From: Octopus sinensis
Taxonomy: Eukaryota
Reading direction: 5' to 3'
DNA: 64,000 bases
Assembly (NCBI RefSeq): GCF_006345805.1
Contig: NC_043022.1
Coordinates: 5,518,001-5,582,000, forward strand
A model generated the notes under the pieces. It made no database searches and was not told where the DNA came from. It saw nothing but the letters and a program-made list of their open reading frames with translations. Below are positions 1 to 58,856 of the stretch, piece after piece. How positions within the stretch are numbered: the stretch's first letter is position 1; each line of letters begins with the position of its first letter. Made by a program: the position numbers and the translations under genes.

Positions 1-183
1 AAATACTAAATTTCTAAATCTCTCGTAGAGACATGTTCGGTGGTGGGGCGATAGAATGGTTGTATACTGTCAATCTAACATGAACGTGACAGAAGGGGGT
101 ACACCATCGCCGTTTAGCCCTAGGAAGCATTGACGCCTCCTGATGGCTTTGACACATTTTTCCTGTGTCCTTATATACATTTA

Positions 184-935
184 CTAACAGCATAGCCCGG
201 CGTTGCCCGGGTATGTAAAAAACTTTGTCGATAAGCAATGCCCTTTATCTTTTTACCCTTTTTTATACTTATTGAACCGTTATTTTGTAAAATGAAGCCT
301 AAAAGGCATTAAGGCATTCAAGGCACCGTTCCCTTGCATGCATGAAGAAAATCTATGACATTCAAAGTGCATTTTCTGGTTTTGTTTAGCACACTCAACC
401 CAGTTCTGCGGTTTTTTCCAGTAATAACGTATCCTATTGGAACCAAAAGGGCCATTTAGCTCCTTGGAGCAGACATGATGCTTGGTGTGAATTTCAAAAA
501 AATATTCCTGCCAATTTGTTAAAGATATTGTCGAAAATATGTCATCCTGAATTTGAACGCAATTTCCCAAAATGGCATGATTTTATCAATTTTTTCTGAT
601 GGTAAGGTATTGCATGGAAAACTAACATCAGATTTAAGTTTCTTAGGGTAACATTAAGCTTTGCCATGAGTTTGGTGAAAATCGATTGCATGTTGCGAAA
701 ACTATAACGGAAAATGTGTTGCATATGATAAGCTTAGATTCTAGACCCCATGTCGAATTTATCGATTTTTTTCAGAACTGGGGGACCTTTTCAAAATTGT
801 CGCTGCATTGGGTTTGAATTATGACATTGGGATATGTGTGTGTCAAGTTTCATCAGAATCGGTTGAAAGCCGTGGTCAGGGTGAGGGTACAACCTGACAG
901 ACACACAGACAAACTGCCGTTTATATATAGAGAGA
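184..935 (-). mobile_element. Non-autonomous Helitron
   Basis: Minus strand starts A|TCTCTCTATATATAAAC and ends with hairpin CCCGG-GCAACG-CCGGG, then ...GCTGTTAG|T (CTAG-like). Inserted between A183 and T936 with no TSD. Same architecture as 27708-28274. Confidence 0.8.
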
Positions 936-975
936 TGAAGGGGAGACAAATACCCCCAGCCGCCCGGGCTGCATC

Positions 976-1016
976 TAGGGACACGTGTTTCAGGATGATT
1001 GTCCTTCGTCGGCCTA
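976..1016 (-). ncRNA. Type I hammerhead ribozyme motif (CCGACGA core variant)
   Basis: Minus strand: TAGG CCGACGA AGGA-caatca-TCCT GAAA CACGTG TC CCTA. Stem I TAGG/CCTA, stem II AGGA/TCCT, palindromic stem III, GUC site. Confidence 0.75.
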
Positions 1017-13541: not shown

Positions 13542-13736
13542 ATTTATTTTATAGAAGGAGCTTCTAAGGACTAGAACTGTTTCATTCAAATGAAATCTTC
13601 AGGAAGCTTCCTGAAGATTTCTTGAATGAAACAGTTCTAGTCCCTGTAGAAGCTCCTTCTATAAAATAAATTAATTTACTCTGCTATGTATTGAGTACCT
13701 TATTTACTGTGGCTAACCCCGACTCAACCCGGGACC

Positions 13737-13740
<4 letters not shown>
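13542..13740 (+). mobile_element. PLE-like fold-back element (130-bp spacerless palindrome, 13542-13671) in a (TA)n tract
   Basis: Palindrome centred on AAGCTT (13604-13609). Same family as 23589-23770, in the opposite orientation. Confidence 0.75.
13605..13654 (+). ncRNA. Type I hammerhead ribozyme motif
   Basis: AGCTTC CTGAAGA tTTC-tt-GAAt GAAA CAG-ttctagtcc-CTG TA GAAGCT. 6-bp stem I, GUA site, weak stem II. Confidence 0.7.
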
Positions 13741-17674: not shown

Positions 17675-17717
17675 ACCTCACTGATGAGGTGTAATAATGC
17701 TGAAACATGTCTGGAGT
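17675..17717 (+). ncRNA. Minimal type I hammerhead motif (degenerate)
   Basis: acCTCA CTGATGA GGTGT-aata-ATGCT GAAA CATG TC TGGAGt. Palindromic stem III; stem II has several G-U pairs. Confidence 0.65.
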
Positions 17718-19683: not shown

Positions 19684-20235
19684 AGGATAAATTTTTCAAG
19701 AAGTTTCTCAAGTGGCCAGCATATTAAAATACCTTTTAAGGTGAAAATTATAAACAATATGAATAAGAGCAAAAGAAAAAAATTTCTCGGCTAATATGCT
19801 GAGAAATAGACTTGAAATCGTCAATCATCACATACATATACATCACTATAGAATATACATCGTGCTGAATTGAGGAAGCAAGCTCATAGAATTTTTTTTT
19901 TTTTTAAAGCATATATATTTAGAAATATACTAGGGGACTTAAGTGTACTCATGATTTTTGCTTCTGCTTTTTTCCCATGGGTGCTTGTAAGTATTTCATT
20001 TATTTCTTATCGCATTTTCTCTGATGAGGCAAAAAATCCATGGATTAATCCCGAAATTGATCAATACAGAGATAACGCTTTTAAAAAAAAAAAAAATTCT
20101 GTTAACTTGCTTTCCTCGATTCAGCACATGTGTATTCTATATTGGGGTATATATGGTATTGGTGATTGATGATTTAAAGTCTATTTCTCAGCTATTGGCA
20201 TAGTAATATTTTCTTTTGCCCTTATTATATTGTAC
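19684..20235 (+). mobile_element. PLE-like element with ~155-bp diverged inverted arms (19754-19910 / 20077-20233)
   Basis: gctgagaaatagacttgaaatc versus gatttaaagtctatttctcagc, among other matches; an HHR lies just before the right arm. Confidence 0.7.
20015..20072 (+). ncRNA. Type I hammerhead-like motif
   Basis: ttTTCT CTGATGA GG..AATCCATGGATT..CC GAAA TTGATCAA TA c AGAGA. Palindromic stem III; stem I register off by one nucleotide. Confidence 0.55.
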
Positions 20236-23588: not shown

Positions 23589-23589
<1 letters not shown>

Positions 23590-23770
23590 GTAGGTCCCGG
23601 GTTGAGTCGGGGTTAACCACAGTAAATAAGGTACTCAATACATAGCAGAGTAAATTAATTTATTTTATAGAAGGAGCTTCTACAGGACTAGAACTGTTTC
23701 ATTCAAAAGAAATCATCAGGAAGCGCTTTTGAATGAAACAGTTCTAGTCCTGTAGAAGCTCCTTCTATAA
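23589..23770 (-). mobile_element. PLE-like fold-back element in (TA)n, same family as 13542-13740
   Basis: tgtaggtcccgggttgagtcgggg...; inverted arms 23665-23709 / 23726-23770. Confidence 0.75.
23676..23724 (-). ncRNA. Type I hammerhead ribozyme motif
   Basis: Minus strand: GCTTC CTGATGA tTTC-tttt-GAAt GAAA CAG-ttctagtc-CTG TA GAAGC. Confidence 0.75.
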
Positions 23771-23896
23771 ATAATATATATATATATATATATATATATG
23801 GTATATGCACAATATACATACGTATATGACCTCGTGTGTACCGTTGGCGATTTTATTTCCTCTGTCTTCCCTTCTCTGGATCTTTCCTTCTGCTAT

Positions 23897-23931
23897 GTTT
23901 CCGACGAAGAGCTCCGCTCGAAACGTTAAAC
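23897..23931 (+). ncRNA. Minimal type I hammerhead (CCGACGA core variant) in a PLE-like remnant at 23825-24030
   Basis: GTTT CCGACGA a GAGC-tcc-GCTC GAAA CG TT AAAC. Pyrimidine-rich flanks, bounded by TA tracts. Confidence 0.75.
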
Positions 23932-32370: not shown

Positions 32371-32418
32371 GTCTTACAGCTGTTTCTGGGATATTAGGGA
32401 TATCCCTTCATCAGAGAC
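32371..32418 (-). ncRNA. Type I hammerhead in a PLE-like remnant (about 32300-32800)
   Basis: Minus strand: GTCT CTGATGA a GGGATAT-cccta-ATATCCC a GAAA CAGCTG TA AGAC. Confidence 0.8.
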
Positions 32419-53401: not shown

Positions 53402-53508
53402 TTTTACAGCCATATCAGGTTCAATGTACGAGTTCTCATCTGATCAATGAAGTTAAGCAACACTGACCCTCATGACTACTTAGATGGGTAACCCCTTAGG
53501 AACCATGC
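53402..53508 (+). pseudogene. Degenerate 5S rRNA copy (pseudogene or SINE3 head)
   Basis: tacagccatatc...gttctcatctgatcaatgaagttaagcaac...tacttagatgggtaacc..ttaggaac aligns with the metazoan 5S consensus (box A AGTTAAGC, box C GATGGGTGACC), with CpG decay. Confidence 0.8.
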
Positions 53509-53703
53509 TAGACCAAGCATCACCTTCACTGCCCATGTATAGCTATGACACAAGCATGGCTGTGGTCATAGAGAAGTTCACTTCCCAACAATGGGTTTTG
53601 GGTTCAGTCCCACGATGTGGAAACTAGGGAAGTGTCATCTAAGATAGAACTGGGCCAACGAAAGCCTTGTGAAAGAATGTGATAGGCACTGAAATAAACC
53701 CAT

Positions 53704-54524: not shown

Positions 54525-54631
54525 TTTTACAGCCATATCAGGTTCAATGTACGAGTTCTCATCTGATCAATGAAGTTAAGCAACACTGACCCTCATGACT
54601 ACTTAGATGGGTAACCCCTTAGGAACCATGC
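54525..54631 (+). pseudogene. Degenerate 5S rRNA copy (duplicate)
   Basis: Same sequence in the second duplication unit. Confidence 0.8.
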
Positions 54632-54826
54632 TAGACCAAGCATCACCTTCACTGCCCATGTATAGCTATGACACAAGCATGGCTGTGGTCATAGAGAAGT
54701 TCACTTCCCAACAATGGGTTTTGGGTTCAGTCCCACGATGTGGAAACTAGGGAAGTGTCATCTAAGATAGAACTGGGCCAACGAAAGCCTTGTGAAAGAA
54801 TGTGATAGGCACTGAAATAAACCCAT

Positions 54827-57756: not shown

Positions 57757-57803
<47 letters not shown>

Positions 57804-57977
57804 TATATATATCGTGATGCATATTTGCCATTTGAATATGGCTAACCCATAAGGGTGGATACTACTGTAGTTTGTAGCCCCAGGAAGATATCTCCTCCAG
57901 CTGGCTATAGACACACTATCTGTGTCCTCTCAGTATTTGTGAAGGGGAGTCATCCTCCCCGCCTTCAACACATGATA

Positions 57978-58022
57978 CACACGTACCCAAGTTTCAAGGT
58001 GTTTACCTTTCATCAGCGTGTG
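57978..58022 (-). ncRNA. Canonical type I hammerhead in a TA-flanked PLE-like element (about 57812-58095)
   Basis: Minus strand: CACACG CTGATGA AAGGT-aaac-ACCTT GAAA CTTGGG TA CGTGTG. 6-bp stem I, 5-bp stem II, wobble-palindromic stem III, GUA site. Confidence 0.88.
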
Positions 58023-58092
58023 ACAATCATGGTTGTCGATGAGAAGTCAGATCCATTCACAAATACAAATATAACTCGCTCTGAGATTTATC

Positions 58093-58127
<35 letters not shown>

Positions 58128-58856
58128 ATATATATATATATAAAAGAAGGTGCTCCAGCATGGCTGAAGTCAAATGACTGAAGCAAATAAAAGAATAAAA
58201 GTATATATAAATCATCATGTATGTACAAATATGTATGTGTATATATATGTATATATATATTTTTAATGTTGCTCTTTCCAAACTTGCATCAGTTGGATAG
58301 AGTCTGAGGAGGGAAACTTCCTATGGCCAGATCCCTTTTCCTTTTTGCAACTGTCACTTTTTACCAAGCTAGCTGGTATTTCACCCCATGCCAGTCACAT
58401 TCTCACAGAGTATTGGTAATGAACAACACTGCTTGTATGACAGGGACACTTCTTTACAACTTGTCACATGATGTCAAGGCAAGAAAATTAAAATATACAC
58501 ACTCTCAGACACACACACACAAATATATATGTATACAAGAGCTTTCTATCGCATTCTCTAGAGCTTTTGGTCAGCCTGGAGCAATAGACACTTGCTCAAA
58601 CTGCCAAGCAGTAGGACTGAACCTGAAACCATGGGCTTGATAAGAAGACTTCTTAACCACACGGCCAATGTCATGCTGGGACATGTATGAACATGTATGT
58701 GTGTATATGGGTTTATATTATACATATATATATATGTTTGCATATGTGTGTGTATATATATATATAATTGCATATATATATATATATATATCTATATATA
58801 TATATATATACATGCATATATACAAATATATACACATACATGCACATATACACATG

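What the first reader, a model, noticed from the sequence alone, without database searches (positions are those of the whole stretch)
57812..58095. Best-preserved hammerhead (57978-58022, minus) and its Helitron-split relative at 1-1016
Fully canonical core with 6-bp stem I, 5-bp stem II and GUA site. The related element at 1-1016 shares the downstream flank, yet its HHR has entirely different stems (TAGG/CCTA, AGGA/TCCT, CACGTG). This is structure conserved with sequence replaced, at the homologous position, and it makes this copy the prime candidate for a live ribozyme.
Basis: partly seen in the sequence, partly recalled or inferred. Interest (0 to 1): 0.7.

Follow-up and report, generated by a model that had tools for sequence, protein, structure and literature searches.

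The report
Truncated Penelope-type insertion with hammerhead ribozyme
This 284-base stretch is one cut-short copy of a highly repeated DNA element, likely the tail end of a Penelope-like jumping gene, and it carries a complete hammerhead RNA motif that is predicted to cut itself if transcribed, which is ordinary for such elements.

Summary
The hammerhead at 57978-58022 (minus) is real: canonical core, GUA site at 57984, best of the window, 0 of 200 shuffles match. The element at 1-1016 is a true relative (62% identity, score 83 against a null maximum of 38), split by a 752-bp Helitron-like insert. Its hammerhead is not 'entirely different': 23 of 36 letters match without gaps, 6 of 12 pairs changed on both sides, and it has a U4C core and a cut-off stem I. 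Public-run contigs show a very high-copy family and reveal that 58070-58095 is an inverted piece of the family's ~43-nt 3' tail. The insertion is therefore a 5'-truncated copy plus an inverted tail, head-to-head in a (TA)n run: the published signature of Penelope-like elements. The ribozyme has the retrozyme-type (canonical) rather than the minimal architecture. A private change at 57989 weakens its dimer helix (-4.2 against -8.9 kcal/mol). Cleavage and expression are untested; no RT/endonuclease frame was recovered, so coding PLE versus non-coding retrozyme-like parasite stays open. Verdict: new member of a known kind, low interest.

The parts
57812..58069 (-). Direct, 5'-truncated copy of the 3' end of a high-copy mobile element family (hammerhead plus structured 3' region); ends at the inner of two family 3' termini
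   Evidence: Contigs of 4 of 4 runs cover all 29 bins; other copies continue upstream with different letters behind 58066/58071 and downstream beyond 57811. Left limit uncertain by about 3 nt (58066-58069).
57978..58022 (-). Type I hammerhead: helix I 6 bp, core CUGAUGA...GAAA, helix II 4 bp + 6-nt loop (or 5 bp + 4-nt loop), helix III 2 bp + tetraloop, GUA site with N17 at 57984
   Evidence: helix I and II pairs have probability 0.79-0.99, helix III 0.0 in the monomer
57971..58031 (-). Extended helix I: 3x1 internal loop (58025-58023 / 57977) and a distal 6-bp helix (58031-58026 / 57976-57971), the place of the type I tertiary contact
   Evidence: Mean pair probability 0.96; the tertiary contact itself is inferred
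57985..57992 (-). Self-complementary helix III/loop 3 (dimer site), carrying a private change at 57989
   Evidence: Self-duplex -4.2 kcal/mol as it stands, -8.9 with the family's majority letter, -10.7 with a further common variant
57933..58066 (-). Long-range 11-bp helix (58066-58056 / 57943-57933) that closes the hammerhead arm
   Evidence: Mean pair probability 0.95
57812..57960 (-). Structured 3' region: hairpins at 57960-57944, 57927-57909, 57907-57875 (with inner 57898-57883), 57856-57845, 57842-57827; likely recognition and initiation region for the reverse transcriptase
   Evidence: Whole element folds at z -4.17, 0 of 200 shuffles as good; first three hairpins are kept in the relative; 10 of 11 common family variants at paired places keep pairing, p about 0.01. 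Function inferred.
58070..58095 (+). Inverted 26-nt piece of the family's 3' tail (outer terminus), joined head-to-head to the truncated direct copy
   Evidence: Joint 57811-58070 'opposite strands' in 3 of 4 runs; loose end beyond 57811 (22 contigs in X1) ends in the same 13 letters; 6 of 10 listed joints show the same piece on shorter bodies
58096..58142 (.). (TA)n target run, left side
57797..57811 (.). (TA)n target run, right side, followed by (TG)n at 57758-57794
936..1016 (-). Relative, 5' piece: hammerhead 976-1016 (U4C core, GUC site at 980, perfect 8-nt palindrome, stem I cut off at 4 bp) and first hairpin
   Evidence: forcing the hammerhead fold costs about 10 kcal/mol
184..935 (-). 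752-bp Helitron-like insert splitting the relative
   Evidence: 5' TC, 3' TTAG, subterminal GC hairpin, A|T target, no duplication
1..183 (-). Relative, 3' piece: hairpin region (about 61-172) and a likely tail homologue (15-30); true end may lie at or beyond the window edge
   Evidence: Alignment score 58 against null maximum 34-45; tail motif 206 nt from N17 against 203 in the other family, modest support

Best explanation
The stretch 57812-58095 is a short insertion in a (TA)n run, made of a 5'-truncated direct copy and an inverted 26-nt tail piece of a high-copy family, and is likely the dead 3' end (pseudo-LTR) of a protein-coding Penelope-like retroelement whose hammerhead is predicted to cut slowly at 57984 if transcribed. 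Shown: the hammerhead anatomy, the family's two 3' termini about 43 nt apart, the head-to-head inverted tail, the (TA)n flanks, many sister copies of the same plan, and homology to the element at 1-1016. Inferred mechanism: the element's RT-GIY-YIG protein bound the hairpin array downstream of the ribozyme, nicked both strands of a (TA)n run and primed cDNA from both ends; one end started at the inner site (57812) and ran about 258 nt through the uncleaved ribozyme, the other started at the tail end and ran 26 nt, and the two were joined. In the master element the ribozyme likely trims tandem precursor RNA, as a dimer or with protein help. This copy has no frame, no second ribozyme nearby and a weakened dimer helix, so it is likely a bystander; I put detectable in vitro cleavage of its RNA at about 0.55 and a function at this locus at under 0.05.
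For:: joint 57811-58070 on opposite strands (X2 3 contigs, X7 1, X20 2); loose end beyond 57811 in 22 (X1) and 15 (X2) contigs; 6 of 10 joints attach the 58070-58095 piece to bodies truncated at 57824-57931; most depth on the tail piece runs on into TA (17,282 of 19,618 in X1; 15,327 of 24,002 in X2); depth falls from the 3' body towards the 5' side. The same plan (inverted 5'-truncated copy, 30-40 bp tail at one end only, (TA)n bias, hammerhead near the 3' end) is described for PLEs in PMC8557442 (passages) and PMC3846280 (passages). PMC11167929 (parts 1-2 of 4) shows for one Poseidon element that the protein cuts and extends both strands at AT-rich DNA, starts at two internal sites whose spacing equals the tail, uses uncleaved RNA, and that its hammerhead needs the protein. 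Family sequence continues upstream of 58066-58071 with other letters (X2, X20). Two more inverted-plus-direct insertions of another hammerhead family lie in this window. Structure-keeping variation.
Against: No RT or GIY-YIG frame was recovered: 0 of 150 longest complex reading frames (of 497 candidates) hit Pfam, and only 30 letters of upstream family sequence are visible. The hammerhead has the canonical architecture (helix I 6 bp, helix II 4 bp, internal loop 1), which PMC4209133 (parts 1-2 of 4) and PMC7229834 (passages) tie to tandem retrozymes, whereas metazoan PLEs mostly carry minimal ones. The region after the ribozyme has no open start, unlike the Poseidon and rotifer pLTRs, which run into the ORF. 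The joints have short sides (21-40 nt) and were found at 80% likeness, where the tool warns of repeats; several subfamilies are mixed. Rfam finds no hammerhead here.
Confidence: 0.72

Rival explanations
1. The family is non-coding: a retrozyme-like unit with a canonical hammerhead that is processed to linear or circular RNA and is inserted in trans by the enzymes of a Penelope-like element; this copy is a truncated solo monomer.
For: Canonical 6/4-bp architecture with internal loop 1 and 2-bp helix III, as in invertebrate retrozymes (PMC7229834 passages); strongly folded RNA; no ORF found; the preprint 10.64898/2026.07.22.740005 (parts 1-3 of 5) reports dispersed monomers and kinship of retrozymes with pLTRs.
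Against: No head-to-tail joint among the 10 joints listed; the tail end mostly runs into TA, not into another unit; upstream letters differ from the tail; single copy here, no tandem. A unit longer than the laid stretch would have escaped this test.
Confidence: 0.22
2. This particular copy is a live, locus-specific ribozyme (kept by the host or still a master copy).
For: Core and GUA site intact; within 57978-58022 only 1 listed place differs from the majority letter; helices I and II form with high probability; the private change lowers the cost of the monomer fold from 6.1 to 3.9 kcal/mol.
Against: 5'-truncated, one of very many copies, differs from the majority letter at 11 listed places of 258, dimer helix weakened by 4.7 kcal/mol, no partner ribozyme of the family in the window.
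Confidence: 0.04
3. The motif is a chance match and the two elements are unrelated.
For: BLASTN misses the alignment; Rfam has no hit.
Against: 0 of 200 shuffles give the motif; alignment z about 18-20; family variants keep the core apart from U4C and N7 and keep the NUH site.
Confidence: 0.01

Closest known systems
Endonuclease-bearing Penelope-like elements (Penelope/Poseidon, Neptune, Nematis, Hydra): insertion plan with pLTR, inverted 5'-truncated copy and tail (PMC8557442, PMC3846280, PMC11167929)
   Same: 5' truncation, head-to-head inverted piece, tail present at one end only, (TA)n target, type I hammerhead near the 3' end, uncleaved RNA copied through the ribozyme.
   Different: Tail about 43 nt (published 30-40); the inverted arm here is only tail; no ORF start downstream of the ribozyme; ORF not seen, so the clade is unassigned. 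(TA)n bias points to Neptune or Hydra types; Naiads are unlikely since they lack canonical hammerheads.
Canonical metazoan type I hammerheads of non-LTR retrozymes (PMC7229834; PMC4209133; bioRxiv 10.64898/2026.07.22.740005)
   Same: Helix I 6 bp with internal loop, helix II 4 bp, 2-bp helix III with self-complementary loop, element size of a few hundred bases, high copy number.
   Different: Not in a tandem array here; no circular or head-to-tail joint seen; ends bear the PLE tail and inversion marks.
Minimal hammerheads of metazoan PLEs (PMC4209133)
   Same: Type I, palindromic helix III, dispersed single motifs with family-level covariation.
   Different: No long (7-8 bp) helix II, no short helix I, no extra base at the 5' end of stem II.
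Canonical non-autonomous Helitron (criteria from PMC8969392 passage) - for 184-935 only
   Same: 5' TC, subterminal hairpin, insertion between A and T, no duplication.
   Different: 3' end TTAG instead of CTRR; no second copy in the window to fix the ends.

Membership tests
Type I hammerhead ribozyme | Core CUGANGA ... GAAA ... UH | tested here: met
   no core mismatch, GUA site
Type I hammerhead ribozyme | Helices I, II, III around the core, helix I open-ended | tested here: met
   Helix I 6 bp, II 4-5 bp form at p 0.79-0.99; helix III has 2 possible pairs but p 0.0 as monomer, 8 pairs as dimer
Type I hammerhead ribozyme | Match to the Rfam hammerhead models | tested here: inconclusive
   0 matches at E <= 10. 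The descriptor test is met, so I read this as limited reach of the models for short-helix-III forms; not shown.
Type I hammerhead ribozyme | Loop 1 - loop 2 tertiary contact | tested here: inconclusive
   Internal loop after 6 bp with an unpaired U at 57977 and a 6-nt loop 2 ending in CA/UA in this copy, the relative and a family variant; the contact itself cannot be computed here
Type I hammerhead ribozyme | Site-specific self-cleavage | not testable with these tools
   Needs in vitro assay; all runs available were contigs
EN+ Penelope-like element | ORF with telomerase-like RT and GIY-YIG endonuclease | tested here: inconclusive
   0 of 150 frames hit Pfam, as expected for a truncated end; no genome held; no family locus found
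EN+ Penelope-like element | Inverted 5'-truncated piece at the 5' side | tested here: met
   58070-58095 inverted; same plan in 6 of 10 joints
EN+ Penelope-like element | Optional 3' tail of about 30-40 bp at one end | tested here: met
   Two family termini about 43 nt apart
EN+ Penelope-like element | Insertion into (TA)n (Neptune, Hydra, Naiad) | tested here: met
   Both ends of this copy and the 5' end of the relative abut (TA)n
EN+ Penelope-like element | Partial tandem forming pseudo-LTRs | tested here: inconclusive
   Single copy here; contigs too short to show tandem structure
Minimal PLE hammerhead | Helix II 7-8 bp, helix I 4-5 bp, extra base before stem II | tested here: not met
   Helix II 4-5 bp, helix I 6+6 bp, no extra base
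Non-LTR retrozyme | Tandem units with at least two hammerheads | tested here: not met
   No tandem or second copy at the locus; no head-to-tail joint among 10 listed
Non-LTR retrozyme | Canonical type I hammerhead | tested here: met
Non-LTR retrozyme | Abundant linear and circular monomer RNA | not testable with these tools
   No RNA holder on record, contigs only
Canonical Helitron (184-935) | 5' TC, 3' hairpin, A|T target | tested here: met
Canonical Helitron (184-935) | 3' CTRR | tested here: not met
   Ends TTAG; hence called Helitron-like only

The most novel reading that the evidence does not exclude
A very high-copy, non-coding family that pairs a retrozyme-type (canonical) hammerhead with a conserved array of 3' hairpins and inserts with the two-start-site tail and inversion marks of Penelope-like elements. 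It would be direct junction-level evidence that animal retrozyme-like RNAs are mobilised by PLE enzymes, and the covarying hairpin array plus the two termini would define a testable RNA signal for a PLE reverse transcriptase.
Probability: 0.2. Interest if true: 0.5.

Novelty: new member of a known kind. Interest (0 to 1): 0.22.

Why it matters
As it most likely stands, it is one of many hammerhead-bearing ends of Penelope-type elements and adds only a further family in a further animal. Its small value is as a clean example: the copy records both RT start sites and shows RNA-structure conservation (ribozyme and downstream hairpins) across families about 38% diverged. If the family proves non-coding, it would bear on the open question of how animal retrozymes move.

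Tried and rejected
Own genome not held. Pattern scans found no family locus: metagenome contigs, viral contigs (31), genome contigs (32), 0 each. Run search: 24 runs listed, 20 hold part of the stretch, no RNA holder listed; two runs guessed as RNA contain close contigs across 57984 (records 22 and 31), but RNA status is a guess and contigs cannot show cleavage, so I draw nothing on expression. Rfam: whole window gave only microsatellite-driven miRNA matches and two 5S-like hits among the 150 rows shown of 263; 0 for the element (28); 4 chance hits at 1-1030 (29). I first read 58095-58057 as the end of an endonuclease frame; rejected when one search showed that 58070-58095 is an inverted tail. 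The 30 upstream loose letters (X2) are open in all three frames by hand reading, and each frame stops within about 30 nt; one ending resembles PLE endonuclease C-termini as I recall them, but this is untested and given no weight. A two-sequence alifold rested on a poor alignment and was discarded; pairs were compared helix by helix instead. The tail motif search was built from the two sites it finds, so its shuffle figure is not a test; the unbiased score is reached by 308 of 6394 tiles. Supplement searches for family motifs in PMC8557442 and PMC13282606 found none; line breaks or unheld files could hide them. Literature searches for hammerhead with octopus or cephalopod listed no paper describing such ribozymes in cephalopods, and PMC13282606 has no occurrence of 'ribozyme'; the library lacks most subscription papers and Repbase/Dfam were not searched, so absence from print is not claimed. 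A search for the U1.7 contact found 0 papers. Earlier-findings look-ups by place, sequence and first words were empty.

Full report
Setting. The window is AT-rich animal DNA full of microsatellites and short repeats; I take it for an octopus-like genome from recall of its repeat landscape, and no call names the host. No genome is held. None of the 150 longest complex reading frames tested (of 497 candidates) matches Pfam.

The observation. On the minus strand 58022-57978 holds a type I hammerhead with an unchanged core and a GUA site whose A is complementary to 57984. It is the best of 4 descriptor hits, and the only one with helix I >= 6 and helix II >= 4 bp; 0 of 200 local shuffles contain one. 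Helix I goes on past a 3x1 internal loop into a second 6-bp helix, and an 11-bp helix (58066-58056 with 57943-57933) closes the arm. Helix II can be read as 5 bp + 4-nt loop or 4 bp + 6-nt loop; the second reading matches the relative exactly in length. This is the canonical metazoan architecture described in PMC4209133 (parts 1-2 of 4 read), not the minimal PLE form. Rfam does not detect it.

The relative. 936-1016 plus 1-183 aligns to the element at 132 of 212 columns (score 83; null mean 21.6, maximum 38 in 2000 shuffles), also without the ribozyme (77) and without joining (58), although BLASTN misses it. The 752-bp insert has 5' TC, a subterminal hairpin and an A|T target but ends TTAG (criteria from a passage of PMC8969392): Helitron-like. 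The two hammerheads share 23 of 36 letters with no gap. Of 12 compared pairs 6 are the same and 6 differ on both sides (2 of 4 in helix I, 2 of 4 in helix II, 2 of 4 in the dimer helix III). One of the two helix I changes uses a letter of the flanking (TA)n, and one helix III change involves this copy's private letter, so the clean count is lower. The relative has U4C, which lowers activity in vitro (passage of PMC3088659), has lost distal helix I, and needs about 10 kcal/mol to adopt the hammerhead fold against 3.9 for the finding. Three downstream hairpins are kept in both, with different loops and one compensated pair.

The family. Of 24 runs listed, 20 hold part of the stretch. I laid 4 of them, at 80% likeness, on 57800-58108: 2401, 1735, 46 and 77 contigs. 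Summed depth is about 350 to 20,000 times that of a single contig depending on place; the tool warns that this is no copy number, and several subfamilies are mixed, but the repeat is plainly abundant, most so at its 3' part. Three results matter. First, other copies run on beyond 57811 with 17 new letters and then the reverse complement of 58070 onward (loose end in 22 contigs of X1, whose outer 13 letters match exactly; 15 in X2 with a noisier consensus; joint 'opposite strands' in X2, X7, X20). So 58070-58095 is an inverted piece of a tail about 43 nt long, whose end mostly runs into TA. Second, 6 of the 10 listed joints attach that same piece to bodies cut at 57824, 57834, 57848, 57924, 57927 and 57931; one more joins it at 58038, two are other inversions, and none is head-to-tail. 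Sides are short (21-40 nt). Third, of 40 variant rows shown (11 not shown), those in the ribozyme are: GUC for GUA (41% of depth in X1), U4C (25%), C at N7 (19%), G at 10.1 (18%; with C at 11.1 in the same-depth contig of X7, only 0.6% in X1), loop 2 changes, and C at 57989 (99.9%), which makes this copy's U private. Among common variants (>= 5% in X1) at places paired in this copy's fold, leaving out two rows that belong to a misfold of the core, 10 of 11 keep the pair, against 53% expected for random transitions (p about 0.01). The relative has a likely tail homologue at 15-30, 206 nt from its cut site against 203; this support is modest (308 of 6394 tiles reach the score).

What it is. A 5'-truncated direct copy, an inverted piece head-to-head with it, a tail at one end only and a (TA)n target are the published insertion marks of endonuclease-bearing Penelope-like elements (PMC8557442, passages; PMC3846280, passages). 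PMC11167929 (parts 1-2 of 4) gives the mechanism for one such element: both strands cut at AT-rich DNA, reverse transcription from two internal sites that bound the tail, uncleaved RNA as template, and a ribozyme that cuts only with the protein and is not needed for insertion in vitro. That fits a copy that runs through an intact cut site. Two insertions of another hammerhead-core family in this window show the same plan, and Penelope-like elements make up 6.83% of one octopus genome (supplement row of PMC13282606). Clade: not assignable without the ORF; (TA)n bias suggests Neptune or Hydra types; Naiads lack canonical hammerheads. The main rival is a non-coding retrozyme-like parasite: the ribozyme architecture favours it (PMC7229834, passages), the lack of any tandem or head-to-tail joint disfavours it, and the 2026 preprint (parts 1-3 of 5) argues that the two kinds are kin anyway.

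Is this copy live? Invertebrate canonical hammerheads with a 2-bp helix III cleave as monomers (about 0.8 and 0.1 per min in coral and mussel), which favours activity; 8 of 9 predicted Xenopus dimers were inactive, which warns against it. Here helix III does not form in the computed monomer ensemble. The private U at 57989 cuts both ways: dimer helix -4.2 instead of -8.9 or -10.7 kcal/mol, but a cheaper monomer fold (3.9 against 6.1), because the majority letter lets loop 3 pair with the CUGA turn. I estimate 0.55 for detectable cleavage in vitro. Expression is untested. Covariation with the relative tells of selection on past master copies, not on this locus.

Earlier notes of this scan on other genomes describe similar truncated and inverted PLE ends; they are unchecked leads and were not used as support.

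Verdict. Observation confirmed; interpretation partly supported. New member of a known kind; interest 0.22. Novel case (non-coding, PLE-mobilised, canonical-hammerhead family with a defined 3' RNA signal): probability 0.2, interest 0.5.

Noticed in passing
window about 13542-13739 and about 23589-23786: Two insertions of another family in (TA)n, each an inverted plus a direct copy with a hammerhead-like core; one arm runs about 67 nt further than the other, i.e. the same tail-and-inversion plan. Truncation falls just 5' of the core, as in the relative at 1016.
   Followed up: partly
window 32375-32414 (-), 17681-17711 (+), 23901-23927 (+), 20021-20062 (+): Further hammerhead cores of other families, some of the minimal PLE type with palindromic helix III; 23901 also has the U4C core.
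   Followed up: partly
window 53402-53518 and 54525-54641 (+): Two identical 5S rRNA-like matches (37.9 bits, gathering 38) inside a near-identical duplication spaced 1123 bp apart: a 5S-derived repeat or pseudogene in a recent tandem duplication or an assembly repeat.
   Followed up: partly
window 57833-57920: The 3' hairpin region is covered about 5-20 times deeper than the hammerhead, and loose ends at 57862, 57892, 57927 and 57928 show other families that share part of it but differ up- or downstream.
   Followed up: no
window about 1031-1130: A short element between (TA)n runs directly upstream of the relative; may be the end of yet another microsatellite-targeting family.
   Followed up: no
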